In this document: piece by piece, positions 11,075 to 57,417 of the stretch
Numbering within the stretch: the stretch's first letter is position 1
Layout: each line of letters begins with the position of its first letter
NCBI RefSeq assembly: GCF_036971445.1
Contig: NC_091477.1
Coordinates: 5,208,001 to 5,272,000 of the forward strand
Direction: 5' to 3'
Length of the DNA stretch: 64,000 nt
From: Narcine bancroftii
Taxonomy: Eukaryota
The notes under the pieces: model-generated
What the model saw: the letters and a program-made list of their open reading frames with translations, nothing else
Databases searched by the model: none
What the model was told of the DNA's origin: nothing
Translations under genes and position numbers: made by a program

Positions 11075-11326
11075 AGGACACAGCGACCATCACGCAAAAT
11101 CAGACACAGAGAAAACTGGATTGCCACCAGCTCCAAGGGATTTTTGCAGGGATCTTTTCGCAACTGAAGGCAAAATGCGTGCATTTTAATGAAATAATTC
11201 GAGAGATTCGCAAGCGGTAAGGGCGTTTTTTGCACAGTACATTTTTTTTATTTAACGCCGACTCACGGGTTGAAGGACAATGGAGACAGTCTCGGCCTAA
11301 ATCCATTGGAATGACTTCTACTAGAA

Positions 11327-13783
11327 ATGAAATATAAAATATATTGGCTGCTAAAATGCCAGGCATTGTGCTGTGTGTTCTTCCCGTTGAGTCTTGTATC
11401 TGGCCTGATTCGTTATTCTGTCCCTGAAGAGCAGCAACTGGGAGCCTTTGTTGGGAATATTGCTGCCGATTTAGATTTAGACGTTAAGCTGCTGTCGGCC
11501 CGCGTTTTCCGAGTGGCGCCCGGACCAAGAAAGCAGTATTTCGACGTAAATCTGGAGAATGGTATTTTATTTGTGAAGGAAATAATTGACAGGGAGCTGC
11601 TTTGTGGATCGAATGTAGATTGCCGCTTATCCTTTGATGCTGTGCTTGAAAATCCTTTGAGCCTTTACCAGGTGGAAGTGGAGATCCTCGATGTAAATGA
11701 TAATGCCCCCGTTTTCCCAAAAAGTCAGTTTCGCCTTGAAATTTTGGAATCTGCGGCACCGGGAATGCGATTTCCCCTTGAGCCCGCACTAGATCCGGAT
11801 ATTGGAACGAACTCCTTGCAAACCTACCAGCTACCTTCGAACCAATATTTTACTCTCAACGTACAAACGCGCAGAGGAAAGGGGACGCGGCCAGTGTTGT
11901 TGTTACAGAAACCCTTGGATAGAGAATCCATATCTATCCACAATATTACGCTAACAGCCAAGGACGGCGGCTTGCCTCCGAGATCTGGAATGGTTCAAAT
12001 TATAATCACAGTGCAGGATGTAAATGATAACTCGCCTGTTTTCTCTCAGTCTACTTACAAGGTTAGTCTATTTGAAAACGCAGCGAAAGGTGCCTTAATC
12101 ATCCGGTTAAACGCCACTGACCTGGATGAAGATGACAATGGAGAGATAATGTACTCATTCAGTAGTCATATTTCTGCCACAGCTCGTAATCTTTTCGCTA
12201 TAAATCCAAAAACAGGTGAAATCAGGCTCAAAGGGAACTTGGATTATGAAGAAAACACTGCCATTGAGATTAACATACAAGCAAAAGATAAGGGTCCTGG
12301 CGCTATCCCTGAGTACTGCGATGTACTGGTCGAAATTACTGATGTTAATGACAATCCACCAGAGGTGACATTACGGTCTTCCACAAGTACAGTTCCTGAG
12401 AACGCTCCACTCGGCACCGTGCTGGCTTTATTTAGCGCAGAAGACAGAGACTCCGGAGAAAATGGTGATGTACATTGTCAAGTCTCAAAGCTTTTGCCAT
12501 TTAAGTTGGATTCATCGATTAAAAACTATTACAAAATTGTTATCCAGGATTTGTTGGATCGCGAAACGATCCCCAAATACGATATTCCTATAATATGCAC
12601 GGATTCAGGGAACCCATCACTCACTTCTAGAAAAACTATCCGAGTTGAGGTTTCAGACATAAATGACAACACGCCGACATTTACCCGCCCCGTATACACT
12701 GCAAATGTTCACGAAAACAATGGTATAGGGGCTTCTATATTTTCGGTGACTGCCTTCGATCCAGATGCTGGACAAAACGCTCGTCTGAACTTTTCTATCC
12801 TTCCATCTCAAATTAAGAATTCCTCAATAACTTCTTATGTCTCCATTAATTCAGCGACTGGTGTCCTGTATGCTCAGAGAGTATTTGACTACGAGCATCT
12901 GAAAACATTCCAGATTCATGTTGAAGTGCGAGATTCTGGTGCGCCAGAACGAAGCAGCAATGTTTCCGTCAATGTTGTGATCCTTGATCGGAATGACAAC
13001 GCTCCAGTGATTACACAGCCTTTACCCGAATATGGGTCCACAGCAATAGAAACAATATCCAGGTTTGCAGAACCAGGATATTTGGCTGTCAAAGTAAATG
13101 CCATGGATGCCGACGCTGGTCAGAATGCTCATCTCTCTTATCAGATTTTCCAGGATACCCGCCAGAGCCTTTTCACAATCTCCTCAGACACGGGAGAAAT
13201 TTGGACTGCCCGTCCAATTTTAAGCAATGATGCCTCTACTCAAAGGCTTGTGGTTGTTGTAAAAGATAATGGAATTCCAGCCCTCTCCGCCTCCGTGACG
13301 ATAGTATTTTCTGTTGTTGGGACGAACAGTGAAACGTTCTCCAGTGTCATCAGTTCTTCGTCAGATCGCCGCTTCAGACCTGAGCTGAGTCTTTCATTGG
13401 TTATTACCTTGGGAATTATATCTGCCACATTCCTCATAATTGTAATTATCCTTGCCGTTAAAGTTTACGCAAGCAGGAATGGTGTGTACGAGCAACAATC
13501 CCTGAGTACTTGTTGTTGCTTTGAATCAAGAAATTCTTTGAATGGAATTCAGAAGGCCAGCAAAAGTCTTCAGATAGCACCCAACTATGTTGATGTATTT
13601 GGGGGTGATCCACTCTCCCAAAGATTTCGCTACGAGTCATGTTCGACATTGCAGTCGACCAAGAGAGATTTTATTGTTCACAACAGGTTTAGAACTTCTG
13701 CAGACAACAACTGTGTGCTGAATGAATCGATCAGGAAAGATAGTTCTGTGATGGTGAATTCTGAAAATCACAGCGTCCCTGGG
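11327..13783 (+). CDS. Pcdh: Clustered protocadherin variable exon 2
   Basis: 839-aa ORF 11327..13846, six EC repeats, CGSNVDC, TM, conserved cytoplasmic motif. Phase-0 donor GGG|GTGAGT after 13783 (819 codons). Confidence 0.95.
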
Positions 13784-14939
13784 GTGAGTTACCTTTCGAT
13801 AAAGAAGAAAATCCTCACGGGTTTTATACGGATGCACGCAATATGAATGAATCAGATCCAGAGGTAAATCATTGTGACTCTCTAACTAAAACATCAATTA
13901 TTGAAAATCGGGAAGAAAAGAAATGTCTTCATCCATATTGAGCAGAGGAGTTGGCGTTTACTGGGAGAGAAACTCCGACCTATTTTGCAGGTGCGCTTTC
14001 ACATATAAAATGCAGCCTGCTCTAATGCAAAATTTAAAATGTGGTTATCTGGCATTGCTTTTCATGACTTCTTTCTGTGTTACAGATTTTTTTTTCCAAA
14101 CAAAATTTGTTTTTATTGTGATAGTTCTGGGACAAAGATTTTATGTAACCATGTAATCGTCATTCAAGAAGTTGTTTTTTTTTAATAGCCGTAGTTTTAA
14201 AAAGTATTTTTAATTCCGCTTACTGACATTATCATCTGTTGTTCAATTGATAACACACACAACTGGAACAGTTCTGACGGATCAAAAGGCAATTGACATG
14301 TTTGTCATCCAGTCTGGCACTGTGCATTTGCTGCTCCCGATGTAGTATCTTCTACATTTTTAAAGATAAATGTTGATTGAGTGAGCACTTTGCAGGATAT
14401 TTCAGTCATCATGTTGACCCTATGCTTGCAGTTTCCCTTCACTTTATTTAAGCACTCTACCTTCAACCTTAACTTTGGGCAACTTCCTTTTAAAGGCGCA
14501 CAATGTAACCTTGTAGAATAGTATCTCATCGTTACTGTCTGCACATTTCAACCTCGTATCTCAATTCAAAAATGTCAGACAACCACCATTTTGTTTTTCC
14601 ATTAGATCAGGCCAGATCAGGCAAGTACAAACATCGTTGTTCTGTATCGCATGCTACAATGTTCTATTTTCTGATTAAATGGCCTTTCATCTTGCAGGAT
14701 ATAATGTCCCCGAGCTGCCGAATAAGTGCTACTATCTAACGTGTCCTCACCTCCACTCATTCACGCACTATAATATTACTGTGTCATAACACGACTGTTC
14801 AGAAGAACGCAAGAAGCAGCAGAAGACCACTCAGCCCTTCAACCCTACCCTTCCCCCATTCAATTGGGGTTATAGCCTCTCAATGATAATATCTGTGGTA
14901 GCACCACTAGACCTGTGTACAGCAATATAGAACAATTCT

Positions 14940-15510
14940 GTTAATAAGCAGTGCTATGGCATTCTTTAAGTAGAGTTGGAGAGAGACATTTCTGCAGGTA
15001 AAAGTAACACTCCCGGACGGCGTGTGACCTCTTTGGTATCAATGCCAACAGTATATCGGAGAAGGCAAAAGACATTGTGGAATGGACGCTTGGGTATCCT
15101 AATATTCTAGGGTCTGTTGATATCAAGGAGGAGGAAGCGAAAATCTGTATCTCATTTCTAAGCTCATCCTTTATTGCCATTGGAGACGAGCCCTTCCATG
15201 TGGAGAAATTGCCAATGGAAATTAGTCCAGACAATTGTTACATCTTGTACTTTAAGAGGTGAGATGTGAGGGGATTTTAAGGCTTTGGAGAAATGGAGAA
15301 GATATTTGCCAGGGCGTTGCATGGATTAGAGTATTAGCCAATAAATAAAAGGACAACCCTGGATTGCATTTTCTGATATGTTGGTAGCTGAAGGTTGAAG
15401 TTTCAGAGTTATGAAAGCCCGGGATAAGTGGACAGATACTCTCTTTTCAGGGCAAAGATTTCAACTACTAGAAGGCATAAGTTTAATGTTAGAATGGGAA
15501 CGTTAAAAAA
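14940..15510. mobile_element. Decayed LINE fragments (minus-strand Rex1/Babar 3' end joined to plus-strand CR1 fragment)
   Basis: Similarity by eye to other LINE copies in the window. Confidence 0.45.
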
Positions 15511-17412
15511 TGACAGGTATTAAAGCCGGTAGTACGATAGTCGATAGTCGTGGTGGGCAACAAGCAGCCAGAGAATATTCTAACAATATACAGATTTTAT
15601 ACTTCTCATTGATTTTGATACAACGAAGGCACAGAAAGCCTTCGTGTTATAACCATAAACGCTATTGCGCTTGTGCAGTTAAAGCTGATAGGTAATGAAT
15701 TTTATCTTTAAAGAATATGCATTTAACAATGACAGAGCAGCAGAGTTTGAGAGTTTGTTATTAATGATGCCGGCGAAGTTCACAGCCACCATTTATCTTA
15801 TCTACAGTAAAATTGTTCCGTCATTTTAGTGGCAAACTCTGACATTTCACTTGGTGCCGGTGGCCACCAATTACTTTCTTATCTGAAGAAGACTGAAAGC
15901 AAAGTAACATCTTGTGGTCATCCGTAAAATTCGACATTCATAATATTGTATAATCGTTCATGAAATGATCATTACTTACATTACCGAGGCAATGCTTTGA
16001 GAATTGCCAGACTGACACTGTTTCAGTATTGTCAATCTCCAACAATGAATGATACCTTTATTGTGTTCATTTCTGAGATGTGTGTGTGTGTCTCCGTCAA
16101 GGAAGGCATTTCATTCATCTCTCAGGACTCTTAAGCAAGTTGTGGTGAGTCAGCCCTTGAACCGCCATAACCCTTCTGGTAATGGTTACATAAAGTTGGT
16201 GCAACATCCAAGGATATGTATCCGGTAGGCTTGACAAATAATGATATATTTTCATGTCAGTTTTTATGTCACTTAGTGAAGAACCAGACATGCAGCGTTG
16301 TTCAAACTGAGCAGAAGCATTAAATTTGATGTTTGTCAGATTTGTATCTGCATAAAGTGAAATTTTCATTGTACGTTTGCAGGGCTGTTTTAAACCATGT
16401 ACAATCGACCAGTGTTACTCTCCCTTTTGTTTTAGATAAGAATATTTCCAAGTTTAGACACAAACTAAACTGCGATTGTGTTGAGGTGGAATCAAAGTGT
16501 ATTAACATGTCTCTTGACAGCATTGTTTGCAATAGCTTCCATCGCCTTAAGGCTGCTTGAAAAACAAATTGAGTAGTGATACTTGACTGGATTAGAATTA
16601 CACCATTGTGATGGTCATGAAATATTTTTGAAATATTACATGGTGTTCATGAAAAATATTGAGCTGCTACTAAGCAGCCTCTTACATATAATGTCTACTG
16701 ATCTTTTGTAACCATTATATGTTGTGTTGCATAGCCTGGATGTCTTTGGTATGCATATTATGTTGTTAATGACAGAAGTAGATTTCCGAAGATACAATTG
16801 GAAGTGATGGCATTGAATGACAACGAATCTCTGTGTCATTCGTTTCTCTACTGGTGTGCAAGATGACAAACTCCTATGTTCAATGCATTCATACTTGAAC
16901 GATTATGGGAGGTGAAATCTTTATACACTTCACAATATACATAGAGAGCAATTACAGACTTTAGGATTTAATTCCAATCCGTATGTTATAGCTAGGTCGG
17001 TTATTTCTAAGATTTCTTTCGTCACCTTGATTAAACGATTGTTAAAATACTTCTTTAGTCAAACCATTTCCAGTTGAACTTCTGTTTTTATTGTTCAGTA
17101 GTTCATCTATGCATGCTGTTGAGAAGGTATCAATGATAAATAACAATGGCAAGTCTAATTTAATCTCGGAAGAGTTACATTCTACTGGACAAGAAAGGGT
17201 AGGACAAACTGTATGAATGGTAATTCATACAGGAATTCAAATGGATTTGGTGCACAAATCCAAATCTCCCTGAAGACGGCATTCTCATGAGTAAGAATGG
17301 GACCAAAGGAGGTTCTTCTATATGTTTATAAAAATCGGAAGGATACAAATGGTCACCAGGTGATTGAAATCACGTCATTAGAATGGAAAAATGCGAAAGA
17401 CTTGCACTAGAT

Positions 17413-17585
17413 CAGTGATTCCCAAACTTGTTCTTCCACACACACATCACTTTAAGGAATCCTTTACTAACCAAAGACCACCGATGGCATAGGATCAGTG
17501 GCATAGGATGGCATAGGTTCTCGGTGGTTTGTAAGGGATTATTTAAGTTGGTTTACGTGTGGTAAAATAAGCTTGAGAACCACTG
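17413..17585. mobile_element. hAT/Charlie-type MITE, monomer
   Basis: TIRs CAGTGATTCCCAAAC...GCTTGAGAACCACTG, internally palindromic. Perfect 8-bp TSD CACTAGAT (17405-17412 and 17586-17593) fits the NTCTAGAN-like Charlie target preference. Confidence 0.9.
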
Positions 17586-18927
17586 CACTAGATATTGCCT
17601 TGGGCGATGAGCTTCAGATATAAGAAAAGACCAAAGATGCTGGGTTTGTTTTATATGTGCTCCAGGGAGCCGAGGGCAAACCTGATTCAAGCATACAAAA
17701 TTTGATGAGCATAAACAAGGTTGTGTAGGATGTCTTGCCAGTAACTGAATTATCAGCTTCTTACCAGGCAATATTTAATTTGTGAAGGCCGTGTGATTCA
17801 GAAGGAAACAAGGAAAGATTTTTTCACATATATTATGGTGGGATTCAACAACACACAAGAGAGAATGGTAGATATTGAACCTCGAACACGTGAGAAAGAT
17901 GATCGTGAGAATTTGTTAACTTGAGTTGTCAGAGTGCAGAAGATGACAGAGTGCTTGAAAATGAAATGTATGTATATGCGTGTGGGTGGGGGGGGGGTGT
18001 TTTCAAAGGGGTCTGTTCCCGTGATCGATGACTCTATGATGTTCTTGAACTCCCATAGGCAACATGACAGTGCACTCACACTCAAACGTTTTTTTTTGTC
18101 GTGAGCTCTGAGAATTTGACTGTGATTATGGCAAGATGACAATATACTAACGACGTCCTGTTCGAAGGTATTTTGGATATTGATATGTTGTCACGCAGTT
18201 GTTAACTGGGTCCACCGAGGTTATAGATGCAGAGATTTAATAGATACTATTGAAACAACGCTAGGGAAATGCTACAATGCGTTTTATGGAGACCAGGCGA
18301 TCCCGGGATTTAATGGGGTTGTTTTATAAAGGGAATACCTATCTTCGATACGTATTCCCTTTAAAAAATATTGTTGAAATTGTATGTCTTAACAACTGGA
18401 AATTGCTCCATTCGTTATTTCCTACTGATGGAAATGTTTTGGAGAGTAAGGAAGGGGGACAGTCAGCTGAATTTCCACGGTATGACATATTATTGTTTTA
18501 CCCATGTTTGTCTCCCTGGATCGTCTTAATTTATAATCAGTAGTGACATCCTGGGTTATAATGCACGTTACTTTAACCATGCAATTCAAAAAAGGTTGGA
18601 TAATTTTCTGTTCTCGATAATGGTTATTTCCAATTTTTGTCAAGTTTGTGTCAGAAGACACAAAGAATGCCCTTTTAGTTTGGTACTCGTTTTCAGGTTG
18701 TGAAAGGATGTGGTGGAGATTTCATAAATTAACGTGGTGTATTCCAACAAACATGCCTCTTTCCAGCGGGTTCTTTAAGCATGTCACTGATCTTTCTTTC
18801 CACAGATGCTGCCTCCCCATATGGTTTACAACGTTTTCTAACGTTCTTTGTAACGTAACAAGTCATGTATATTTTAACATTTAGCACATTTCAACATGTA
18901 AACACGAAAAAAATAGAATATTTTCTG

Positions 18928-19110
18928 CAGTTGCCCTCAGGCTTTTCCTTTCCACTCACATACCATATTAAGGAAATTGTTACTCAACATAGAGCACCTA
19001 TGGCAGTGATCTTCAATTTTTCTTTACTCACGTACCACTTTAAGTAATCCCTTAAGGTGGTATGTGAGTGAAAAAAGGTACGCGAATAGAAAAAAAAGAT
19101 TGAGTACCTC
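18928..19110. mobile_element. Degenerate or nested copies of the same hAT MITE
   Basis: CCACTCACATACCA...AAGTAATCCCTTAAGGTGGTATGTGAGTG core; second CAGTGATCTTCAA end at ~19004. Confidence 0.7.
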
Positions 19111-19375
19111 TAATCTAATGAAACCAAGAGCTAATACCTTCTTGAATGATGAAGATAAATTCTTTATCCTCTACGAACAAGCAAAAGGTGTTGGTTAGAG
19201 AAGCAAAATAATCATAAATAAAATTGAAACGTTGAGCCGATTGTTGCTATTTATGTTTGTGTTACTTTAATCAACAAGGGTCTATCATAATTTAAGACTT
19301 AATATATTAATTTGAATATAAATTGCAAGAACTCGGACCTGCTGAAATTAACCAGAACAGGCGGAAATATATTTC

Positions 19376-19524
19376 AATTGCACAACCATAAATACAATAG
19401 TTCTGTTCAACTTTAAGTAAGTGTAGCTTTAAGAAAACATGGAGAATCCTGATTGGTCGAATATCAATGCGTTTCTGCACCAGTCAGGAGGCGAGGTGTG
19501 ATGAGTGATCCGCACAGCCCCTTC
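19376..19524 (+). promoter_or_regulatory. Variable-exon 3 promoter module
   Basis: AATTGCAC 19376; GCTTTAAGAA 19426-19435; ATTGG 19452; CCAGT (variant CCAAT) 19480; GTGATCCGCACAGCCCCTTC 19505-19524. Confidence 0.85.
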
Positions 19525-19777
19525 AGGACTCAGCGGCCATTATTGAAGATCAGACAGAGAGAAAACTAGATGACCAACAGCTCGGTGGGTTTTGCGCAAG
19601 ATTCCTCTCGCAACACAGCCAAAACAGGAGAATTTGAATCAAATAATTCGGGAGAATCGCAATAGGCATGAGTATTTTTTGTACAGCTTTTGTTCTATAT
19701 TACGCCGACGTACTGTTAAAAGGATAACAAAACAATACCATCTGGGCCTGAAAGCACTGGAATGACTTCCACTGGAA

Positions 19778-22231
19778 ATGAGATATAAAATATATTGGTT
19801 GGTAAAATGCTATTTGTTGTGCTGTGTGTTCTCCCCGTGGAGTATTGTGTCTGGGCAGATTCGTTATTCTGTCCCTGAAGAGCTGCATCTGGGAGCTTTT
19901 GTTGGGAACATCGCTACCGATTTAGCTTTAGATGTAAAGCAACTGTCCGATCGCAATTTGCGGATAGCGCCCGGACCAAGAAAGGAGTATTTCGGCGTAA
20001 ATTTGGAAAATGGGATTTTATTTGTGAAGGAAAGAATCGACAGAGAACTGATTTGTGGGTCGAATCTCGATTGTAGTTTATCTTTTAACGTTGTATTTGA
20101 AAACCCCCTGAGCTTGTATCCAATTGAAGTGGAGATTCTCGATGTAAATGACAATGCACCCGGTTTTCCAAACAGCACGTTTCGTCTTGAGATCGTGGAG
20201 TTGGCGACACCAGGAATGCAATTTCCCGTTGAACCCGCATACGACCCGGACATTGGTAGTAACTCGTTGCAAAGCTACCAGCTACAGCCGAGCGAATATT
20301 TCACTCTCGATATACAAATGCGCAGTGGGAAAGAAAGGCGGCCAGTATTGTTGCTGCAGAAGCCTTTGGACAGAGAAACGGTGGCAACACACAACGTAAC
20401 GCTGATAGCAAAGGACGGTGGTTTGCCTCCTAGATCGGGAACAGTTCAGATTGTAGTTATAGTGAAAGATGTGAACGACAACGCGCCTGTTTTCTCTCAG
20501 CCCACTTACCGAGTCAGTCTGTTGGAATCTGCACCGAAAGGGACACTGGTCATCACATTGAACGCCACTGATCTGGATGATGGCCTCAACGGAGAGATTA
20601 TATATTCTTTCCGTCGCCATATTTCTTCTACAGCAAGAAAACTCTTCCATCTGAACTCCAAAACTGGTGAAATCAGACTCGGTGGGAAATTGGACTATGA
20701 AGAAAACAATGCCCTTGAAATAAAAGTACAAGCAATGGATAGGGGTTCGGGCGCTGTTCCCGAGTACTGTGATGTATTGGTCGAAATTATTGATGTGAAT
20801 GACAATCCGCCGGAGGTGACATTAGGGTCTTCGTTAACTACAGTATCGGAGGACGCACCACCTGGCACTGTTGTTTCTCTTTTCACCGTAGAAGACAGAG
20901 ACTCCGGGCAAAATGGTCAGGTACACTGTCAAATTTCAAAGCAACTGCCTTTTAAGCTATTTTCATCCATAAGAAACTATTATAATATTGCCATAGAGCA
21001 TGCGTTAGATCGCGAAAATACCGCCAGCTATGATATTTTTGTAAGGTGCACGGATGCAGGTGACCCTCCTCTGACTTGTAAGAAAAGCATCCGCGTAGGG
21101 GTTTCAGACATAAATGACAATGCGCCAAAGTTTTCCCGACCCGTATTCACGGCAAATGTTCAAGAAAACAATGGCATTGGGGCTTCAATACTTTCATTGA
21201 CTGCCTTTGATCCAGATGTTGGACAAAACTCTCGACTGACATTTTCGATCCTGTCGCCGCAAGTTTGGAATTTCTCAATAACCTCTTATGTTTCGATTAA
21301 TCCAGCCACTGGTGTCCTTTATGCTCAGAGAGCTTTTGACTACGAACAACTGAAAAGCTTTCAGATACAAGTTCAAGTGCAAGACTCTGGTACACCAGCA
21401 CTCAGTAGTAACGCTTCCGTCAATGTTGTGATCCTAGATCAGAATGACAACGCTCCCGTGATTATACAGCCATTACCCGAATATAGATCAACATCAACAG
21501 AAATAATATCAAGGTTTGCAGAACCAGGATATTTGGTTTTAAAGGTATCAGCCACTGATGCGGACGCTGGACAGAACTCTCGACTCACTTATCAGATTTT
21601 TCAGGATACCCGCCATAGCCTTTTTACAATTTCCGCAGACACGGGCGAAATCTGGACCATCCGTCCAATTTTGAACAACGATAATTCTAACCAAAGACTG
21701 ATGGTTGTAGTAAAAGATAATGGAATTCCATCACTCTCTGCCACTATGACAATAGTATTATCTGTGGTTGGGACGGATAGTGAAACATTATCCAGTGTCA
21801 GCACTTCTTCGTCAGATCGCAGGTTCAGACCTGAGCTGGGTCTCTCGTTGGTTATTGCCTTGGGAATAATATCTACCATTTTCCTCTTAATTGTAATTAT
21901 CCTTGCCGTTAAAGTTTACTTGAATAGTATGGTGTACGAGCAACAGTACCCGAGCACGTGCTGTTGCTTTAAATCAAGAAATTCTTTGAATGGAATTCAG
22001 AAGGCCAGTAGAAGTCTTCAGATAGCACCAAACTATGTTGAGGTATTTGGGGGCGATCCGCTCTCGCAAAGATTCCGCTACGAGTCATGTTCGACATTGC
22101 AGTCTTCCAAAACAGATTTCATCGTCCCGAAGCGGTGGAGACCATCTACAGAAAATAACTGCGCGATGAACGTATCTTCCGGGAGTGACAACGCTGAAAT
22201 GATGATTTCTGGAATGTATTATGTTCCTGAG
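19778..22231 (+). CDS. Pcdh: Clustered protocadherin variable exon 3
   Basis: 820-aa ORF 19778..22240, six EC repeats, CGSNLDC, TM. Phase-0 donor GAG|GTGAGA after 22231 (818 codons). Confidence 0.95.
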
Positions 22232-23229
22232 GTGAGATGATTTTAAACAGAGAAGAAAATCTTCATTGTTTTTTTTTGGAAACACGAGGATTTGGCAGAA
22301 GCATCGGTGTTTAGATATATAAAGTACGGAAATATATTGAGCGGTTATTCTGTATATATTTTTCTTTAGATGTGTTATAGAATAATAAATATAACTAATT
22401 GTAGTGTGTTCATAGCAACACACATCCGCAATAATTATTTTTATTCCACAGATGCTGGTTTTTCTGCTAAATCCAATAATCGCTTTTTACCACATATTTG
22501 CCCAAACCAAACTGTGCTGTGCTTAACCACGTCCATCATTTCCCTTCTCACTAACGAAGCCCAACAAACCTCCAGGCCTCCCTTTGGCAGCACCGTTATG
22601 ACACCTCCACACGTCATTTCCCATTCTATCACGGAGATGCACTTTTTTTCTCTGCGCGCAAAACCATGTTTTGATGTGTAAATTGTTTTTTTTTATAAAC
22701 TACATGTGTCATTGCTTCCATACCCTCACCAAATATGTGGCGTTGCTTGTAGAGTATCCTTAACGCTTCTGCTCATTATGAACTCCTCTTAGTTTAAATC
22801 TTTATTTTTCTGGAGAAATTGGCATAATAATATTAATCTGCTCATTCGGAGAAAACGTCCTTTACACAAATGATGTTTTTACATCTTATTCCTCCTAAGA
22901 TCAGACATAATTAGCATATTGATACTCCCTGGACCAAAATAAAAAGCATCATCCAAGAGGAAAATCGTTATTAACAAATCAGCATTTTCAAATCATATTT
23001 TCTTGTTTTATTACACATGGGATTGGTAAAGAGCGTTTGGACAATTTGCTTGTGGTATCTGGTTGGAAATGTGCAGGAATATTTTAATTGCGTTGTAATT
23101 TCCTCAAACGAACGTCAAAATGTAAACGCCATTAGAAATAAATTGTTTCCGACATGTGGTGCTATGGTCGTCTACATTCCAAAATTGAACGGTTCATTGT
23201 GGAGGGATCAGCTACTGTGTCGTTGTTGC

Positions 23230-30586: not shown

Positions 30587-30823
30587 ACTACACAGCCGCC
30601 ATCACTTAAGACCAGATGCCGTGCAAACTGGGTATCAAGCAGCGTCCGAGCATTTTGCACGGTTCAAGTCGAGGGTCAACGCAACAGAAGATTTAAATGA
30701 AATCAGTGAAAAAAAATCGCAAGGTATAGGCATCTTCTGCATTGTATTTGCCTCATTTTAAATGAAATTGCTGTTTAAAGGCATTGTCTCTGGTTAAAAC
30801 CATTGGAATGATTTCTCCTGGAA

Positions 30824-33286
30824 ATGAGAGATAATATACATTGGCTGTTGAAATACCAACTATTTGGCTGTTTGTTCGGCCACTGGAATCTCATTTCTGG
30901 GCAGGTTCGATATTCTGTTCCTGAGGAACTGCAACCGGGTGCCTTTGTTGGCGATATCGCATTTGATTTGGGTTTAGATTTAAAGCAGCTCTCGGCTCGC
31001 AGTTTGCGGGTTGCGCCCAGTCCAAGGAAGCAGTATGTTGATATAAATTTGGAGAATGGGAATTTATTTGTGAATGAAAATATCGACAGGGAACAACTTT
31101 GCGGAACGAGGAACGATTGTATTTTATCCTTGAACGTTGTCCTTGAAAATCCCCCCACCCTTCACCAAGTGGAAGTGGAGATTCTCGATGTAAATGACAA
31201 CGCCCCCAGTTTCCCTAAAAGCCAGGTCCGCCTTGAAATCTCAGAGATCATGGCGCCGGGAGCGCGGTTTCCTCTGGAGGTTGCACGCGATCCGGACATT
31301 GGAACAAACTCCTTGCAGACGTACCAGCTCCTTCCGAGTGAATATTTTATTCTTGATGTACAAACGCGCAGTGGGAAAAGAAAGTTACCGGTGTTGGTGT
31401 TGCAGAGGCCTTTGGATAGAGAAACATTGCCAAGACACGACTTAACGTTGCTCGCCGAGGACGGAGGAGTCCCTGTAAGATCGGGTAAGCTTCGGGTAAC
31501 TATCGAAGTACAGGATGCCAACGACAACATTCCTGTTTTCTCGCAGTCGGTTTATCTGGTGAGCCTGCTGGAATCAACTCCCACCGGTACACTGATCATT
31601 AAGTTAAACGCCACTGATTTGGACGAAGGGACCAATGGGGAGATAACGTACATGATCAGTAGCCATAGTTCTGAAAATGTTCCTGAATTCTTTCATGTCA
31701 ATTCGAAAACTGGTGAAGTCAGGCTGAAAAAGCGCTTGGACTATGAGCAATGCAAGTTTTTTGAAATTAATGTTCAAGCAGTTGATAATGGCCCGAACGC
31801 AATGCCTCAACAGTGTGATGTGTTGGTAAATGTTACTGATGTGAACGATAACGTTCCTGACATGACATTGACATCTTCGTCAAGTATTGTGTCAGAGAAT
31901 GCCTCAGTTGGAACGGTAGTGGCTCTACTCCACGTGGAGGACAAAGACGCTGAACAAAATGGGCAAGTACAGTGTCACATTTCAGGTAACCTGCCGTTTA
32001 AGCTGGATTCGACTTCGGAAAACTTTTCCAGACTGATTATACAGCGTACCCTGGATCGCGAAACTATCTCCAGGTATGACATTACCATAACATGCACAGA
32101 TGCAGGGAATCCCGCTCTAACAGCCAAGGAAACGCTTCGTGTAATTGTTTCAGATGTAAATGACAATGCTCCAATGTTTACGCAACCAGTGTATACGGTC
32201 AATATCGTGGAGAACAACGTTATTGGGGCTTCAATATCATCTCTGACTGCTCTTGATCCAGATGTAGGGCAGAATGCGCGACTGAACTTTTCTATGTTGC
32301 CATCTAACGTTTATAACACTTCAATTGCCTCATATATCTCTGTCAATCCAAAGAGTGGCGTTATACTTGCTCAGAGGTCGTTTGACTACGAACAATTGAA
32401 AGAATTCAAGATTTACGTTCAGGTGCATGATTCTGGACTTCCACCGCTCAGCAGTAACGCATTGGTGCATATAATTATAGTTGATCAGAATGATAATGCC
32501 CCGGTGATCGTGAATCCTTTGCCCAAATATGGATCAACGGCGATAGAAACAATATCCCGGTTTGCAGAACCTGGATACCTAGTTGTCAAGGTTTCAGCAA
32601 TTGACGCCGACGTCGGTCAGAATGCTCGTCTCTCTTACCATATTTCTGAGGCAACTCATCGCAATCTCTTTACAATCTCAGCAGATACGGGGGAAATCTG
32701 GACAATCCGTGGTGTTGGGAGTAGAGATTCTTCCAAACAAAGATTGGTGATTTTCGTAAAAGATCACGGAATTCCACCACTTTCAGCCTCAATAACTATT
32801 GTACTCTATGTGAATGGAGGAGAAAATTTCTCAAGTGCCACCAGTTTATCTGAAGATCTTTATTTCTCTCCTGGTCTAAACTTTTACCTGGTCATTGCCC
32901 TGGGAACAACTTCTATCGTTTTCCTGCTGATTCTAATTATCCTCACTGTTAAAGTTTATAAACACCCAAATAATGATGGACACACATACTGTTCTCAGAA
33001 TCATTGTTGCTGTTTTGAAACAAGAAATTCTCTGAATGGAATTCAAAAGGCCAGTAGAAGTCTTCAGATACCACCAAATTATGTTGAGGTTTTCGGAGGT
33101 GATCCACTTTCTCAGAGCTTTCGTTACGAGTCATGTTCAACATTGCATTCCAACAAAAGAGACTTCACAACTCCTCAAACATATAGTATGTCTACAGCTG
33201 TTCAGTACACCCAGAAGAATCCTGATGGGAATTTGAATGCACGAGTGGCAGAGCCTGAAGAATCAAATGAGACTGTAAAATTTAAG
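30824..33286 (+). CDS. Pcdh: Clustered protocadherin variable exon 4
   Basis: 833-aa ORF 30824..33325, six EC repeats, CGTRNDC, TM. Phase-0 donor AAG|GTGAGC after 33286 (821 codons). Confidence 0.95.
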
Positions 33287-38974: not shown

Positions 38975-41434
38975 ATGAGATATAACATATATTGGTTTCT
39001 AAAATGCCACGTATTGTGCTTAATGTTCTCTCCGTGGGTTCTTGTATCTGGGCAGATTCGTTATTCTGTCCCTGAAGAGCTGCAACCGAGAGCCTTTGTT
39101 GGGAATATTGCTGCCGATTTAGATATAGACGGAAAGCTGTTGTCTGCTCGCGGTATGCGGATAGCGCCCAGTTCAAGGAACCAGTATTTCGGCATACATT
39201 TGGAGAGTGGGATTTTATTTGTGAAGGAAATAATCGACAGGGAACAGCTTTGTGGATCGAATCTCGATTGCCGTTTATCATTTGATGTTGTGGTTGAAAA
39301 TCCATTGACCCTTTACCAGGTAGAAGTGGAAATTCTCGATGTTAATGACAATGCTCCCAGTTTCCCGAAAAGTCAGTTTCGTCTGGAAATCTATGAGTCT
39401 GCGGCACCAGGGATGCGATTTCCCCTTGAACGCGCACACGATCCGGACATTGGCAGCAACGCTTTGCAAACCTACGACCTCCAGCCGAACAAATATTTTA
39501 TTTTGGACCAGCAAACGAGCAGCTGGAAGGGCAGACGGCCGATATTGTCCCTACAGAGGTCCTTCGACAGAGAATCTGCACCAATCCACAATTTAACGCT
39601 AACAGCTAAAGACGGGGGTACACCTCCGAGATCAGGAACGGTTCAGATTATGGTCATTGTGCAGGATGTAAACGACAACTCTCCTGTCTTTTCTCAGTCC
39701 GTTTACAGGGTTAGTCTGTTCGAAAATGCACCAAAGGGAAGCCTGATCATCAGATTGAACGCTACTGATCTGGATGAGGGTGCAAATGGGGAGATAAGGT
39801 ACTTTCTGAGCAGCCACATTTCTACAACTGCCCGAAAGCTTTTTGATGTCAACCCAAAAACGGGCGAAATCAGACTCAAAGGGCATTTAGACTATGAAGA
39901 AAGCAGCGCCATTGAGATTAACATCCAAGCAGTAGATAAAGGTTCCGGTGCTATACCCCAGTACTGTGATGTATTGCTGGATATTATTGATGTGAATGAT
40001 AACGCGCCGGAGGTGACGTTTGGTTCTTTGTCAAAGACAGTTTCCGAAGACGCTACTCTTGGGACGGTAGTGGCTCTGTTCACTGCAGATGACAGAGATT
40101 CCGGACAAAATGGTGAGGTACATTGTCAACTTTTAGATCAGCTGCCCTTCAAACTAGATTCATCTCTAAAGAGATATTTCAAAATTATTGTACAACAGTC
40201 ACTGGATCGTGAAAGCAACCCCAAGTATGATATAACTATAACATGCACCGATTCTGGGAACCCTCCTCTCACTTCCAGAAAAACGTTTAGCATAGAAGTT
40301 TCAGATATAAATGATAATGCTCCAAAGTTTTCACGCTCGGAATACACAGCCAATATTCAAGAAAACAATGAGATTGGAGCATCCCTGCTTTCCATAACGG
40401 CTTTCGATCCAGATGTGGGTGGAAACGCCAAGCTGGGCTATTCTATCCTGCAGTCTCAAGTTGAGAATTCTTCAATAAACTCTTTTGTCTCAATGAATTC
40501 AGCCACTGGTGTCCTTTATGCTCAGAGAGTGTTTGACTATGAACAACTGAAACATTTCCAGATCCAAGTTGAAGTGCGAGACTCTGGCACGCCAACACTC
40601 AGCAGTAATGCTTCAGTGAATGTTGTGATCCTTGATCAGAATGACAATGCTCCCGTGATTAAACAGCCTGCTCCCGAACACGGATCCATAGCAACAGAAA
40701 CAGTATCCAGGTTGGCAGAACCTGGATATTTGGTTCTTAAGGTATCTGCCACTGACTCCGACGCTGGTCAGAATTCTCGACTCTCTTATCACATTTTTCA
40801 GGCGACCAGTCACAACCTTTTTACAATTTCTGCAGACAGTGGCGAAATTTGGATTATTCGTCGAATTCTGAGTAAGGAAGCCTCTTCTCAAAGGCTGGTG
40901 ATTGCCGTAAAAGATCATGGAATTCCCTCACTCTCTGCCACTATGACTGTAGTATTATCTCTGGTTGAGACTGGTAGTAAAACGTCCTCCAGTGTCAGCC
41001 AGTCTTCTGCCGATCCCAGGTTCAGGCCTGAACTGAGCTTTGTCTTGGTTATAGCTTTTGGATCCATATCTATCATGTTTCTCGCAATTGTAGTTATTCT
41101 CGCCATTAAAGTTCACAAAAACAGAAATGGTGTTGTATACCACCACCGTACCCTAAGTACTTGCTGTTGCTTTGAAACGGGAAATTCATTGGTTGGAATT
41201 CAAACCGCCAGCGAAAGCCTTCAGATACCATCAAATTATATTGAGGTATTTGGGGGTGACCCGCTCTCCCAAAGATTCCGCTATGAGTCTTGCTCGACAT
41301 TACAGTCTACCAAGAGAGGTTTCATCGTCCCCAACATACATAGAACCCCTGCAGACAAAAACTGTGTGGTGGGAGAAACTACTGCAGAAGAATCTGCTGG
41401 AATATTGATTTCTGAAAAATCCAATGTTCACGAG
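38975..41434 (+). CDS. Pcdh: Clustered protocadherin variable exon 5
   Basis: 822-aa ORF 38975..41443, six EC repeats, CGSNLDC, TM. Phase-0 donor GAG|GTGAGG after 41434 (820 codons). Confidence 0.95.
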
Positions 41435-44200: not shown

Positions 44201-44206
44201 GAACAG

Positions 44207-46130: not shown

Positions 46131-47183
46131 CAATGGTTCTCAACACTTTTTCCCATTCAACTACTACCTTAGGTCTTCTCTTTGACTAGGCTTCGCGGAT
46201 GAAGATTTATGGAGGGATAAATGTCCACGTCAGCTGCAGGCTCATTTGTGGCTGACAAGTCCGATGTGGGACAGGCAGACACGTTGCAGCGGTTGCAGGG
46301 GAAAATTGGTTGGTTGGGGTTGGGTGTTGGGTTTTTCCTCCTTTGTCTTTTGTCAGTGAGGTGGGCTCTGCGGTCTTCCTCAAAGGAGGTTGCTGCCCGC
46401 CAAACTGTGAGGCGCCAAGATGTACGGTTTGAGGCAATATCAGTGCACTGGCGGTGGTCAATGTGGCAGGCACCAAGAGATTTCTTTAGGCAGTCCTTGC
46501 ATCTCTTCTTTGGTGCACCTCTGTCTCGGTGGCCAGTGAAGAGCTCGCCATATAACACGATCTTGGGAAGGCGATGGTCCTCCATTCTGGAGAGGTGACC
46601 TACCCAGCGCAGTTGGATCTTCAGCAGCGTGGATTCGATGCTGTCGGCCTCTGCCAGCTCCAGTACTTCGATGTTGGTGATGAAGTCGCTCCAATGAATG
46701 TTGAGGATGGAGGGAGACAACGCTTCAAGGAGCCTTAGGTGATGCCGGTAGAGGACCCATGATTCGGAGCCGAACAGGAGTGTGGGTATGACAACGGCTC
46801 TGTATACGCTAATCTTTGTGAGGTTTTTCAGTTGGTTGTTTTTCCAGACTCTTTTGTGTAGTCTTCCAAAAGCGCTATTTGCCTTGGCGAGTCTGTTGTC
46901 TATCTCGTTGTTGATCCTTGCATCCGATGAAATGGTGCAGCCGAGATAGGTAAACTGGTTGACCGTTTTGAGTTTTGTGTGCCCGATGGAGATGTGGGGG
47001 GGCTGGTAGTCATGGTGGGGAGCTGGCTGATGGAGGACCTCAGTTTTCTTCAGGCTGACTTCCAGGCCAAACATTTTGGCAGTTTCCGCAAAACAGGACG
47101 TCAAGCGCCGAATCCCTTACTAACCACAGAGTAACTCTGGTTAAGGTCGTACGTGCACGGGGAAACCTTTTTTTAGAACCACT
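46131..47183. mobile_element. hAT MITE split by an RTE insertion (arms 46131-~46172 and ~47111-47183)
   Basis: CAATGGTTCTCAAC left end; AATCCCTTACTAACCACAGAG...AGAACCACTA right arm; imperfect 8-bp TSD CTTTAGGA/GTTTAGAA. Confidence 0.7.
46173..47110 (-). mobile_element. RTE-clade (BovB-like) LINE, 5'-truncated, RT C-terminal region
   Basis: 311-aa ORF 46169..47104 with FTYLGCTIS, RLAKANSAFGRLHKRVW, LRWVGHLSRM, LYGEL..G.R.RGAPKKR and a C-terminal CxxC remnant; typical RTE ORF end. Confidence 0.9.
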
Positions 47184-47820: not shown

Positions 47821-48052
47821 CATGCCCAGCCGCCATCACGTAAGATCAGACGCCTTGAAAACCCGACAGCCAGCAGCTGCGGAGGATTCCTGCAGGATTC
47901 GGCCCGCAACACGAAAAGAAATAAATGAAATTAGTCTCACAATTCGCAAGAAGGTACAGATATATTCAGCCTCGTATTTGTCCCTTTTAAAGGGAGTCGC
48001 TGTCAAAAGGCATTGTCTCGGGTTGAAACAAATGGAATGAATTCTCCTGGAA

Positions 48053-50515
48053 ATGAGAGATAATATACATTGGCTGGTGAAATACCAACTATTTGGCTGT
48101 TTATTCGGCCACTGGATTCTCGTTTCTGCACAGATTCGATATTCTGTTCCTGAGGAACTGCAAGCGGGTGCCTTTGTTGGGAATATCGCAATTGATTTGG
48201 GTTTGGGTCTGAAGCAGCTCTCGGCTCGCAGTTTGCGGGTGGCGCTCGGTCCGAGGAAACGGTATGTGGACGTGAATTTGGAAAATGGCCTTTTATTTGT
48301 GAATGAAAGAATTGACAGAGAACAACTTTGCGGCTCGAGCAACGATTGCGTTTTATCCTTAAGCGCTGTGCTTGAAGATCCCCTCAGCCTGCACCAAGTG
48401 GAAGTGGAGATTCTCGATGTAAATGACAACGCTCCCAGCTTCCCGAAAAGCCAGGTCCGCCTTGAAATCTCCGAGATCATGACGCCGGGAGCGCGATTCC
48501 CTCTCGAGGCCGCACGCGATCCGGACATTGGAACTAATTCCTTGCAGACCTACCAGCTCTTTCCGAATGAATATTTCATTGTTGATGTCCAAACACGCCA
48601 TGGAAAAGGAATGCTTCCCGTATTGGTTCTACAAAAACCTTTGGATAGAGAAACAATGCCAAACCACGAGTTAACGTTGCTCGCCGAGGACGGCGGAGTC
48701 CCTGTGAGATCGGGCAGGCTTCAGGTAACTATCGAAGTGCAGGATGCCAACGACAACATTCCTGTTTTCTCGCAGTCGGTTTATCGAGTGAGCCTGCTCG
48801 AATCATCTCCCACCGGTACACTGATCATTACGTTAAACGCCACTGACTTGGACGATGGAACCAATGGAGAGATAACGTACATGATCAGTAGCCATAGTTC
48901 TGAAAATGTTCCTGAATTATTTCGGATCGATTCTAAATCTGGCGAACTTCGACTGAAAAGGCGCTTGGACTATGAACAATGCAATTTTTTTGAGATTAAT
49001 GTGCAAGCAGTCGACAATGGCCCTTACGGAATTCCACAACACTGTGATGTTTTAGTTGATGTTATCGATGTGAATGATAACTCCCCTGAAATCACGCTGT
49101 CATCTTCAATAAATACAGTCTCTGAAGATGCTTCAGTCGGTACGATAGTGGCATTGCTCCGTGTAGAAGACAAAGATTCTGGAGAAAATGGTGAAGTGGT
49201 GTGTCAAATTCCAAGTGAAGTGCCGTTTAAACTGGATTCATCCATGGAAAAGTTTTCTCGTCTGATTTTACAGCATCTACTGGATCGCGAAACGACTTCA
49301 AGGTATGACATTACCATAACATGCACAGATGCAGGGAACCCCGCTTTAACATCCAGAGAAACGGTTCGTGTAGATATTTCAGATATAAATGACAACGCCC
49401 CAATGTTTACGCAACCTATGTACATGGTCAATGTCATGGAGAACAACGTTAGAGGCGCTTCAATCTTCTCTATGAGCGCATTTGATCAGGATGTAGGAGA
49501 AAACGCCCGTCTTAACTTTTCTATCCTGCCATCACTAGTTGAAAACTCCTCCATTGCCTCTTATATTACTATAAACTCAGAGAATGGAGTGTTATTTGCT
49601 CAGAGGTCTTTTGACTACGAACAATTAAAAGAATTTAAGGTTTACGTTCAAGTGCATGATTCTGGATTTCCACCGCTAACCAGTAACGCTTCAGTGCATG
49701 TTGCTATACTTGATCAGAATGACAATGCCCCGGTGATCGTGAACCCTTTGCTCAAATATGGATCAACAGCAACGGACACAATATCCAGATTTGCAGAACC
49801 TGGGAACTTAGTTATCAAGGTATCAGCCACTGACGCCGACGCCGGTCAGAATGCTCGACTGAATTACTTTATTTTTGAGGCCACTCACCCCAATCTGTTT
49901 ACGATTTCTACAGGCACAGGGGAAATTTGGACTATCCGTGGATTTGAGAGCAAAGATGCCTCTAAACAAAGGCTGGTGGTGGTCGTGAAAGATGATGGTA
50001 TTCCATCACTTTCAGGCACAGTAACCATTGTACTATCTGTGAAAGGAAGTGAAACATTCTCCAGTGCAACTAGTTTATCCAAAGATCGTGACTTCTCTCC
50101 TGATCTAAACTTTTACCTGGTCATAGCCTTGGGGACAACTTCGTTGATTTTTCTCGTGGTTTTAATGATCCTCGCTGTTAAAGTTCATAAAAGCAGAAAT
50201 TGCGTGGGACGACAATACAATTCTCCGACTCTTTGTTGGTGTTTCACAACAAGAAATCCTTTGACTGGAATCCAAAAGGCCAGTAGAAATCTCCAGATCC
50301 CACCGAATTATGTTGAGGTTTTCGGAGGGGATCCACTTTCTCAACGCTTCCGATATGAATCGTGTTCAACATTGCAGTCCGTCAAGGGAGACTTCCCGTC
50401 TCGACAAACGTGCGGGCAGTCCGCTGCTATGCAGTATGTCCAGAAAAAATATGTTGAGAATAAAAATGCAGGGACGACCAAGCTGGAAGAATCTAATTGC
50501 AGTGTAAACATTGAG
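48053..50515 (+). CDS. Pcdh: Clustered protocadherin variable exon 6
   Basis: 825-aa ORF 48053..50530, six EC repeats, CGSSNDC, TM. Phase-0 donor GAG|GTAAGG after 50515 (821 codons). Confidence 0.95.
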
Positions 50516-54741: not shown

Positions 54742-54997
54742 ACGACGCAGCAACCTCACGGTAGGTCAGATACAGACGAAACAGGATAACCAGCGGCTCC
54801 GTGGGGTTGTTCCTGGAGTCCTCGTGCAATTTTAGCCAAAATGCGAGAATTTGAATGAAACAATTCAAGCGATTTGCAAGAGGGATGGTAGTTTTTTTTT
54901 TTATCGGGGTTATTCCATTTTAACATCGACGCACTGTTGAAAGAACAATGAACAATAGAATCCGGGCCTGAAACCATTGGAATGACTTCCACTGGAA

Positions 54998-57417
54998 ATG
55001 AGATATAAAATATATTGGTTGCTAAAATGCCAATTGTTGTGCTGTGTGTTCTCTCCGTGGGTTCTTGTATCTGGGCAGATTCGTTATTCTGTACCTGAAG
55101 AGCTACAACTGGGAGCCTTTGTTGGGAATATTGTTGCCGATTTAGCATCAGATATAACGCAGCTTTCGGCTCGCAGTATGAGATTACTGCCGGGACCGAG
55201 GAGGCAGTATTTCCATGTAAATTTGGAGAGTGGGATTTTATTCGTGACGGAAAGGATCGACAGGAATAAAATGCCGATTAGCCTTCCACGTTGTTCTTAA
55301 AAGTCCCTTGAGCCTGTATCAGATAGAAGGGGATATTCTCGACGTAAATGACAATGCCCCCGTTTTCCCCAAAAGCCAGTTGCGCCTTGAAATCTGAGTT
55401 TGCACCACCGGGAATGCGATTTCCCCTTGAACACGCACACGATCCAGACATTGGCAATAATTCATTGCAAACCTACCAGCTGCAACGGAATGAATATTTT
55501 ACTCTCGATGTACAACTTCTAGTGGGAAGGGCAAATGGCCAATCTTGCTTTTGCAGAAGCATTTGGACAGAGAAAGCATGCCATTGCACAGTTTAACGTT
55601 AACAGCCTGGGACGGAGGTTTACCATCGAGATCGGGAGTGGTTAAGATTATAGTCACAGTGAAGGATGTAAATGACAACTCACCTGTTTTCTCTCAGTCG
55701 GTGTATAGGGTCCGTCTGTTGGAATCTACACCGATAGGGGCCCTGGTCATCACGCTGAACGCTACTGATGTGGATGATGGCCTCAATGCGGAAATAATGT
55801 AGTCTCTCCTCAGACATGTTTCTTCTATTGCCCGTAAACTTTTCGACTTGAACGCTAAAACTGGTGAAATCAGACTCAAGGGGAAATTAGACTATGAAGA
55901 AAGCAAGGTCTTTGAAATTAATGTACAGGCAATGGATAAGGGACCAGGCGCCATTCCCGAGCACTGCGACGTATTGGTCGAAATTATTGACGTTAATGAT
56001 AATACGCCAGAGGTGATCTTCCGGTCATTGTCAACGATAGTTTTGGAAGACGCTGCACCCGGAACGATAGTGGCTCTGTTCAGTGCAGACGACAGGGATT
56101 CGGGTCAAAATGGGGAGGTACATTGTCAAATTTCAAATCAACTGCCTTTTATTTTGGATTCATCTATAATGAATTGTTACAGAATTGTTGTACAGCAGCC
56201 ACTGGATCGGGAACACAACCCCGAATATGATATTACTATAACGTGTATAGATTCGGGGGACTCACCTCTGACTTCCAGGAAAACCATCCGGGTAGAGGTT
56301 TCGAATATAAATGACAATGCGCCAAAATTTTCTCATCCCGTGTACACGGCAAATGTTCAAGAAAACAATGGGATTGGGGGTTCTATACTTTCCGTGACTG
56401 CCCTATGATACAGATGTTCGACAAAACGCCCGACTGAATTTTTCTATCCTGCCCTCTCTTGTCCGGAACTCCTCAATAAACTTTTATGTCTCGATTAATT
56501 CAGCCACTGGTGTCCTTTATGCTCAAAGGGTTTTTGACTACGAACAACTGAAACATTTCCAGATCCAGGTTGAAGTGCGCGACTCTGGTACGCCAGCACT
56601 CAGCAGTAATGCTTCAGTGAATGTTGTGATCCTTGACCAGAATGACACCGCTCCCGTGATTATACATACTTCACCTGCATATGGATCGACAGCAATAGAA
56701 ACAATATCCAGGTTTGCAGAACCAGGATATTTGGTTGTCAAGATATCAGCCACTGATGCCGACTCTGGTCAGAACTCTCGACTTTCTTATCAGATTTTTC
56801 AGGCGACTCATAACCTTTTTACAATTTCCGCAGAAACAGGCGAAGTTTGGACCATCCGTCGAATTTTGAAAAAGGATGCCTCCAACCAAAGGCTGGTGGT
56901 TGTGGTAAAAGATAATGGAACACCATCCCTCTCTGCCACTATGACCCTAGTGCTCTCTCTGGATGGAACTGATAGTGAAACGTTCTCTAGTGTATGCAGT
57001 TCGTCGTCAGAGTCTAGGTTCAGACCTGAACTCCGTTGGTTATAGCTTTAGGAGTAATATCTATCGCTTTCTTTATAATTTTAGTTGTGCTCGCAATTAA
57101 AGTTCACAAAAGCAGAAACGGCATCCTATACCAACACCGTTCCCTGGGTACTTGTGGTTACTTTGAATCAATGCATTCATTGAATGGAATTCAGAAGGCC
57201 AGTAAAAGTCTTCAGATACCACCAAATTATGTTGAAGTATTTGGAGGTGACCCACTCTCCCAAAGCTTCCGCTATGAGTCATGTCCGACGTTAGTCTGCC
57301 AAGAGAGACGTTATTATCCCCAACAGGTGCAGATCATCTGCAAATAAAGAATTGAACGCATCGATTGGAAAAGAAAATATTGCAATGGTAAACCCTATAA
57401 AATGCAGCGTTTCTGAG
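54998..57417 (+). pseudogene. Pcdh: Clustered protocadherin variable exon 7, pseudogene
   Basis: Full-length homolog of exons 3/5 broken into ORFs 54998..55300, 55348..55596, 55545..55802, 55848..56408, 56575..57045 and 57036..57347. Lesions: ~20-bp net deletion at ~55266 removing the first Cys of EC1 C-X5-C, small indels at ~55393, ~55518, ~56404, ~57033 and ~57292, and TAC>TAG at 55800-55802. Donor GAG|GTGAGA retained after 57417. Confidence 0.9.

What the first reader, a model, noticed from the sequence alone, without database searches (positions are those of the whole stretch)
11311..55008. Conserved 8-codon uORF overlapping the start codon of six of seven protocadherin variable exons
Seen: exactly 16 nt upstream of the Pcdh ATG is an out-of-frame ATG in the context GGA-ATG-A. 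It reads 8 codons and stops at a TAA at +9..+11 of the main CDS: 11311-11337 MTSTRNEI*, 19762-19788 MTSTGNEI*, 30808-30834 MISPGNER*, 38959-38985 MTSTGNEI*, 48037-48063 MNSPGNER*, 54982-55008 MTSTGNEI* (pseudogene). It is kept in both divergent subfamilies although the upstream 5'UTR is poorly conserved between them. Exon 1 lacks the uATG but keeps the in-register TAA. Established: overlapping uORFs with a purine at -3 repress main-ORF initiation, which then depends on leaky scanning. Inference: a shared translational dosage-limiting layer on top of stochastic promoter choice, with exon 1 as a de-repressed isoform. I am not aware of this being described for clustered Pcdhs.
Basis: partly seen in the sequence, partly recalled or inferred. 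Interest (0 to 1): 0.8.

Follow-up and report, generated by a model that had tools for sequence, protein, structure and literature searches.

The report
Ancient decoy start codon, ray protocadherins
In an electric ray, 13 of 14 neighbouring nerve-cell identity genes carry an out-of-frame start codon exactly 16 bases ahead of their real start, better preserved than the surrounding leader, and it likely diverts ribosomes to limit how much protein each gene makes.

Summary
The window is part of the protocadherin-nu subcluster of a ray. An out-of-frame ATG sits at exactly -16 in 13 of its 14 variable exons and in 0 of 26 other cluster exons tested. All 13 have G at -3. Four-fold synonymous sites between these paralogs are near saturation, and the leader further upstream evolves at 0.77 of that rate. 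The last 33 nt are slower (0.39), yet an intact ATG at that rate has P about 0.0006 (0.013 by a crude column count). RNA-like contigs show leaders of about 230 nt, so the ATG is transcribed. Gene models from 8 other chondrichthyan species fit it in 11 of 15 informative cases. The 8-codon length is not conserved (8, 9, 14, 38, 78 codons), and exon 1 is a secondary loss, not a designed de-repressed isoform. Best reading: a selected overlapping uORF start competing with the main AUG; translation is untested. The mechanism class is known; nine literature searches found no report for clustered protocadherins. The scan noted a similar -25 ATG in another shark genome.

The parts
11311..11337 (+). overlapping uORF of exon v2 (ATG at -16, 8 codons, TAA +9..+11)
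19762..19788 (+). overlapping uORF of exon v3
   Evidence: inside RNA-like contigs 19544-19782 and 19550-19782
30808..30834 (+). overlapping uORF of exon v4
   Evidence: ATG inside contig 30593-30829
38959..38985 (+). overlapping uORF of exon v5
48037..48063 (+). overlapping uORF of exon v6; an extra ATG at -21 opens a 2-codon frame that stops at -15
54982..55008 (+). overlapping uORF of exon v7 (pseudogene in this genome)
3050..3082 (+). start-proximal block of exon v1; ATG lost by one change at -15 with neighbouring changes
19745..19777 (+). gap-free conserved 33-nt start-proximal block (example: v3); invariant columns over 13 exons at -27, -26, -19, -17 to -14, -11, -6, -3
19544..19777 (+). 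transcribed 5' leader of v3, about 230 nt, with two further ATGs (-208, -110)
30593..30823 (+). transcribed 5' leader of v4, about 230 nt, with three further ATGs
19452..19484 (+). reverse plus forward CCAAT-type box pair of the v3 promoter; such a pair precedes all 14 exons
3083..5524 (+). Pcdh-nu variable exon v1, ATG to splice donor
11327..13783 (+). Pcdh-nu variable exon v2
19778..22231 (+). Pcdh-nu variable exon v3; an X1 contig leaves the genome just past this donor
30824..33286 (+). Pcdh-nu variable exon v4
38975..41434 (+). Pcdh-nu variable exon v5
48053..50515 (+). Pcdh-nu variable exon v6
54998..57417 (+). Pcdh-nu variable exon v7, two frameshifts

Best explanation
An out-of-frame ATG lies 16 bases ahead of the main start in 13 of 14 protocadherin-nu exons, and it is likely kept by selection as a competing start codon that lowers translation of each isoform. 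Shown: position, frame, G at -3, presence in transcribed leader, retention across saturated paralogs. Inferred: scanning ribosomes that start at -16 read into the CDS in the -1 frame and stop past the main AUG, so they are lost to it. Protocadherin is made by ribosomes that leak past or win the short-range competition between the two AUGs. Early termination far upstream of the constant-exon junctions would also expose the mRNA to NMD. The conserved unit is the start codon, its context and its distance, not the peptide or the stop.
For: 13 of 14 nu exons against 0 of 26 other cluster exons. Four-fold p-distances among v9-v14 are 0.56-0.68; 0 of 65 four-fold columns are invariant. The only run of 3 or more invariant columns in -235..-1 is -17..-14. 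The pattern fits a start codon: -3 invariant G, while -2 takes three bases and +4 all four. uORF length and peptide vary. Contigs of runs X1, X2, X3 reach -228 to -251, 47-70 nt below the CCAAT box. In 11 of 15 informative gene models from 8 other species, chimaera included, main-frame codon -5 is Cys or Trp (TG at -15,-14) after Glu, Lys, Gln or Gly; Gly in 3 of them means the base just before the ATG can change. PMC9743702 (abstract and passages): out-of-frame upstream ATGs lower output in yeast, competition fades beyond about 17 nt, and mRNA loss depends on UPF1. PMC7253449 (passages): new uAUGs that form overlapping ORFs, lie near the CDS or have a stronger Kozak context are under stronger negative selection in people, so long retention is unexpected unless favoured.
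Against: No translation data of any kind. The leaders are not clearly ATG-depleted: 44 ATGs seen against 54.7 expected in -230..-20, 27 with a purine at -3, and every exon has at least one, so many ribosomes may be diverted earlier. Bases -20, -19, -17 and also -27, -26, -11, -6 are nearly as conserved and are not all explained by a start codon. Four of 15 foreign models do not fit; two imply a splice acceptor over -14/-13. The foreign evidence is protein-level and cannot show A at -16. All RNA runs are guessed to be RNA, are contigs, and cannot give the main start site or strand. Overlapping uORFs at scattered offsets also occur in 10 of 26 other exons, so an overlap alone is common here.
Confidence: 0.6

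Rival explanations
1. The conserved thing is a DNA or RNA protein-binding motif at about -27..-14 that happens to contain ATG, for example a downstream promoter element. The resemblance of 10 copies to a TEAD site is recalled, not tested.
For: Invariant or near-invariant columns extend beyond the triplet (-27, -26, -20, -19, -17). At the rate of -20..-17 an intact triplet has P 0.046.
Against: Position -18 takes G, A or C, and three foreign models imply G at -17, while TG is kept. Spacing to the main ATG is fixed in 13 of 13, while the distance from the CCAAT box to the ATG varies from 257 to 308 nt, which ties the element to the start codon rather than to the promoter.
Confidence: 0.22
2. Neutral inheritance: the ATG arose once in the nu ancestor (a slipped former start or a short duplication of the start context) and persists because start-proximal sequence evolves slowly or is homogenised by gene conversion.
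For: One origin explains all copies. The block -33..-1 is slow even without the ATG (0.39). It was lost in v1 with an intact ORF. Signal peptide plus EC1 four-fold distances are somewhat lower than those of EC2-3.
Against: P 0.0006-0.013 for retention at the local rate. Neighbouring columns -13, -12, -9..-7 differ between subfamilies, so there is no recent homogenisation. Low conversion is reported for elephant shark (PMC2764143 passages).
Confidence: 0.13
3. The block is coding in the main frame: an N-terminal extension from a non-AUG or spliced start, with TGA at -15 read through or recoded in v2-v8 where others have Cys or Trp.
For: Main-frame translation of the block looks conserved across species, and TGA aligns with Cys/Trp codons.
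Against: The main frame is closed at different places (stop at -24 in v12, further up in v14, at -15 in seven exons) and no nu exon has an open in-frame upstream ATG. A fixed TG with a free third base is what an ATG at -16 predicts.
Confidence: 0.04

Closest known systems
Out-of-frame overlapping uORFs (oORFs), e.g. the NF1, NF2 and IRF6 variants in PMC7253449 (passages read)
   Same: AUG in moderate Kozak context within 50 nt of the CDS, out of frame, stop inside the CDS.
   Different: There they are mostly new harmful variants under negative selection; here one is held at a fixed offset across 13 paralogs with near-saturated synonymous sites.
Closely spaced AUG competition, Brownian-ratchet scanning (PMC9743702; abstract and passages)
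   Same: Two AUGs within about 17 nt, out of frame; output depends on distance and context.
   Different: Synthetic reporters (yeast libraries; HeLa for downstream AUGs only); here a natural gene family, untested.
Elephant shark protocadherin-nu subcluster (described in PMC2764143 passages; primary paper not held)
   Same: v1-v14 form one clade with Callorhinchus nu8, 9, 13, 15, 17 (SH-aLRT 99, quick tree) and share nu-type constant exons.
   Different: No upstream ATG or translational control appears in the passages read.
Conserved-peptide uORFs such as CPA1/arg-2 attenuators (recalled)
   Same: A conserved upstream reading frame.
   Different: Peptide sequence and length are not conserved here.

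Membership tests
overlapping out-of-frame uORF (oORF) | [quoted passage not shown] | tested here: met
   13 of 13, stops at +9 to +219
overlapping out-of-frame uORF (oORF) | AUG lies in the transcript leader | tested here: met
   contigs cover it for v3 (X1, X3) and v4 (X2); runs are guessed RNA; one X1 contig leaves at the v3 donor as splicing predicts. Other exons not shown.
overlapping out-of-frame uORF (oORF) | moderate or strong Kozak context | tested here: met
   G at -3 in 13 of 13; G at +4 in 1 of 13
overlapping out-of-frame uORF (oORF) | ribosomes initiate there and main-ORF output falls | not testable with these tools
   needs ribosome profiling or reporters
conserved-peptide uORF | peptide sequence and length conserved | tested here: not met
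   8 to 78 codons; codons 2-4 differ between subfamilies
Pcdh-nu subcluster | clade with elephant shark nu proteins | tested here: met
   quick tree, SH-aLRT 99; v7 not in this tree (frameshifted), placed
Pcdh-nu subcluster | 3'-terminal variable exons followed by shared constant exons | tested here: met
   constant-exon matches 7-66 kb after the v14 start
mammalian alternate Pcdh promoter (CSE/CTCF) | conserved CGCT box at a fixed place upstream of the start (PMC7811963 passages) | tested here: not met
   forward CGCT in -420..-200 in 6 of 14 exons at scattered places; no full CTCF matrix scan was run
conserved RNA structure at the start | shared stable fold with covariation | tested here: not met
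   consensus energy -0.12 kcal/mol, covariation term +0.08; pairing of either ATG varies 0.13-0.99

The most novel reading that the evidence does not exclude
Cartilaginous fish set protocadherin dosage at translation initiation, subfamily by subfamily. The nu genes hold a decoy AUG at 16 nt, the edge of the scanning-competition window, and another subfamily holds one at 25 nt. Each group of isoforms gets a fixed output ratio and NMD sensitivity that one initiation-factor or stress signal could lift together. This would be a layer of the neuronal identity code not described in mammals.
Probability: 0.2. Interest if true: 0.75.

Novelty: new member of a known kind. Interest (0 to 1): 0.5.

Why it matters
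In the passages read, clustered protocadherin regulation is described at the level of promoter choice (PMC7811963). A start codon of a class that selection usually removes, held at one offset since before the chimaera-elasmobranch split, points to family-wide translational or NMD control of isoform dosage. It also offers a natural allelic series for testing distance-dependent AUG competition: 13 contexts, one loss, and uORF lengths from 8 to 78 codons.

Tried and rejected
Conserved 8-codon peptide: rejected. Conserved hairpin over the two ATGs: rejected. Selenocysteine or read-through extension: rejected. Direct DNA from relatives: the metagenome scan found no relative. Run X5 (organism B) gave one 349-nt contig that matches exon v7 at 8 of 9 listed differences and covers the -16 site, but differences near contig ends were not listed. 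Of 6 unlisted differences 5 are expected from v7, so retention is likely but not shown; not counted as evidence. No run is on record as RNA: no RNA holder listed. Uncovered exon starts (v2 at -16) say nothing. Literature: searches (protocadherin with uORF, uATG, leaky scanning, ribosome profiling, NMD terms) listed no paper on upstream AUGs in clustered protocadherins, judged from titles and abstract starts; 'Pcdh' mostly hit the pCDH vector. Searches were for background. The elephant shark primary paper was not held, so its promoter alignments and supplements may already show this ATG. The careful tree did not finish; the quick tree is used.
Full report
Observation. The six uORFs are at the stated coordinates. 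Each ATG is 16 nt ahead of a protocadherin main ATG, has G at -3 and A at +4, reads 8 codons and stops at TAA +9..+11. Exon 1 lacks the ATG and keeps the TAA. Exon 7 has two frameshifts.

Locus. The window is G000:C21:5208001-5272000, near the 3' end of a protocadherin cluster with matches from 4.38 to 5.31 Mb. A database protein 100% identical to a neighbouring exon, on a contig of the same length as C21, is labelled Narcine bancroftii. I read 5188001-5472000 without gaps (and the window). It holds 14 variable exons (v1-v7 in the window, v8-v14 beyond) followed by shared constant exons. The 13 intact exons form one clade with elephant shark nu8, 9, 13, 15 and 17 (SH-aLRT 99, quick tree). PMC2764143 (passages) describes nu as a subcluster of cartilaginous fish without orthologs in bony vertebrates.

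The feature is wider than the window. One search listed 47 exon starts. I dropped 4 on other contigs and 2 broken ones, gave 41, and 40 had a start Met by rule. An ATG at exactly -16 is in 13 of 14 nu exons and 0 of 26 others. The upstream set may be incomplete, since only 64 candidates were scored, and a few rule-based starts there may be wrong. All 13 have G at -3 and overlap the CDS in the -1 frame. Lengths are 8 codons (6 exons), 9 (4), 14, 38 and 78. The short ones end at one homologous TAA formed by main-frame codons, and a synonymous change removes it in v8. So the conserved unit is the start and its spacing, not an 8-codon frame.

Is retention more than descent gives? Four-fold p-distances are 0.17-0.59 within v2-v8 and 0.56-0.68 within v9-v14. 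Of 65 four-fold columns filled in all 12 intact ATG-bearing exons, none is invariant. On that tree, retention of all three bases has P about 2e-8. The fair comparison is local. Rates relative to four-fold sites are 0.39 for the promoter (-330..-231), 0.77 for the leader (-230..-34), 0.39 for -33..-1 without the ATG and 0.16 for -20..-17. Retention then has P 0.0006 at the block rate, 0.013 from the share of invariant columns (7 of 30) and 0.046 at the rate of the four adjacent bases. The triplet was chosen after it was seen, and saturated branch lengths are rough. The only run of three or more invariant columns in -235..-1 is -17..-14. It is close against the immediate upstream flank, which includes the -3 base.

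Other species. No eukaryote relatives' genomes were searchable, so I used gene models that happen to translate the leader in the main frame. There an ATG at -16 shows as Cys or Trp at codon -5 after a codon ending in A. I picked chondrichthyan nu-type models by eye, leaving out this genome's own models and those with no upstream residues (89 hits had none) or a replaced signal peptide. Of 15 informative cases, 11 fit (10 Cys, 1 Trp; preceded by Glu 5, Gly 3, Lys 2, Gln 1), from 8 species including Callorhinchus. Four do not fit (P0001 twice, P0032, P0035); all are fused multi-exon models, and two imply a predicted acceptor over -14/-13, which if real means loss in those paralogs. This test cannot tell A from G at -16 and cannot see TGA-bearing leaders. 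With the tree it dates the ATG before the chimaera-elasmobranch split (inference). v1 is nested among ATG-bearing paralogs, and the nearest shark models (P0020, P0219) fit retention, so v1 is a secondary loss.

Is it in the mRNA? Four runs of one study, guessed to be RNA and kept as contigs, were laid on 10950-30940. Contigs span 19544-19782 (X1), 19550-19782 (X3), 30593-30829 (X2) and 11076-11269 (X2), without gaps. 14285-16952 has no cover in any run. One X1 contig leaves the genome at 22235, where splicing from the 22231 donor into constant exon 1 predicts. The 5' ends lie 47-70 nt below the forward CCAAT-type box. Leaders are thus about 230-250 nt and contain the -16 site for v3 and v4. 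Contigs cannot show the main start site.

Against a simple story. Every leader has 1-7 further ATGs: 44 seen against 54.7 expected from composition, 27 with a purine at -3. None keeps a fixed offset to the main start, although one near -127..-143 recurs in most of v1-v8. Ribosomes must leak past or reinitiate after these first, so the net effect of the -16 ATG is unknown. Ten of 26 non-nu exons have some overlapping uORF. There is no conserved RNA structure.

Mechanism. From established scanning rules, a ribosome that starts at -16 terminates downstream of the main AUG and is lost to it. PMC9743702 (abstract and passages) reports that out-of-frame upstream ATGs lower output in yeast, that two AUGs compete within about 17 nt, and that the mRNA loss needs UPF1. 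A 16-nt gap is at the edge of that window; this may be why spacing is fixed, but that is my inference. Termination about 2.4 kb ahead of the first constant-exon junction would make such mRNAs NMD candidates (inference). PMC7253449 (passages) shows that newly created uAUGs of this class are selected against in people, which makes long retention informative. I put selected competing start at 0.6, a binding motif that contains ATG at 0.22, neutral persistence at 0.13 and in-frame extension at 0.04.

Comparison and novelty. It has the anatomy of an oORF; the defining functional test was not possible. It is not a conserved-peptide uORF. The promoters share a CCAAT pair without a common CGCT box, so mammalian-style stochastic choice cannot be assumed. 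Searches listed no report of upstream AUG control in clustered protocadherins (titles and abstract starts only). The elephant shark primary paper and its supplements were not available. An earlier unchecked note of this scan (e1-9216150) describes an ATG at -25 in three exons of another shark genome. Three non-nu exons here show the same offset, so fixed-offset upstream ATGs occur in at least two subfamilies.

Verdict. A real, old, probably selected overlapping upstream start in Pcdh-nu; a new member of a known kind; function untested. Interest 0.5.

Noticed in passing
G000:C21 main starts 4940894, 4950589, 4982398 (L020, L014, L061): Three non-nu exons with short 18-residue signal peptides carry an out-of-frame overlapping ATG at exactly -25, 79 nt from the mature start, one base off a 26-codon signal peptide.
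   Followed up: partly
window, about 260-380 nt upstream of each main ATG (e.g. 19400-19540): All 14 nu promoters share an ordered set of boxes with a reverse and a forward CCAAT-type box 19-50 nt apart and no common CGCT box.
   Followed up: partly
window 29935-30548: One X2 contig (depth 3.4) joins across a 612-nt GT..AG gap that ends inside the v4 promoter: possibly an upstream spliced first exon.
   Followed up: no
window 54998-57417: v7 has two frameshifts here, while its apparent ortholog appears as an RNA-like contig in organism B.
   Followed up: partly
about -127..-143 in v1-v8, e.g. window 30697-30699: A second leader ATG recurs at one aligned place in 7 of v1-v8, with variable uORF length and pyrimidine at -3.
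   Followed up: partly
+31 or +34 of v2, v3, v5, v7, v10-v14: An out-of-frame ATG inside the signal-peptide codons in 9 of 14 exons, in the same frame as the uORF; probably a by-product of Lys followed by Cys or Trp.
   Followed up: no
window 46169-47074, minus strand: 301-codon ORF that looks like the end of a LINE reverse transcriptase (label by eye, not searched).
   Followed up: no
G000:C21 5314446-5373900: nu constant exons; the last one is read in two frames by different isoform models.
   Followed up: no
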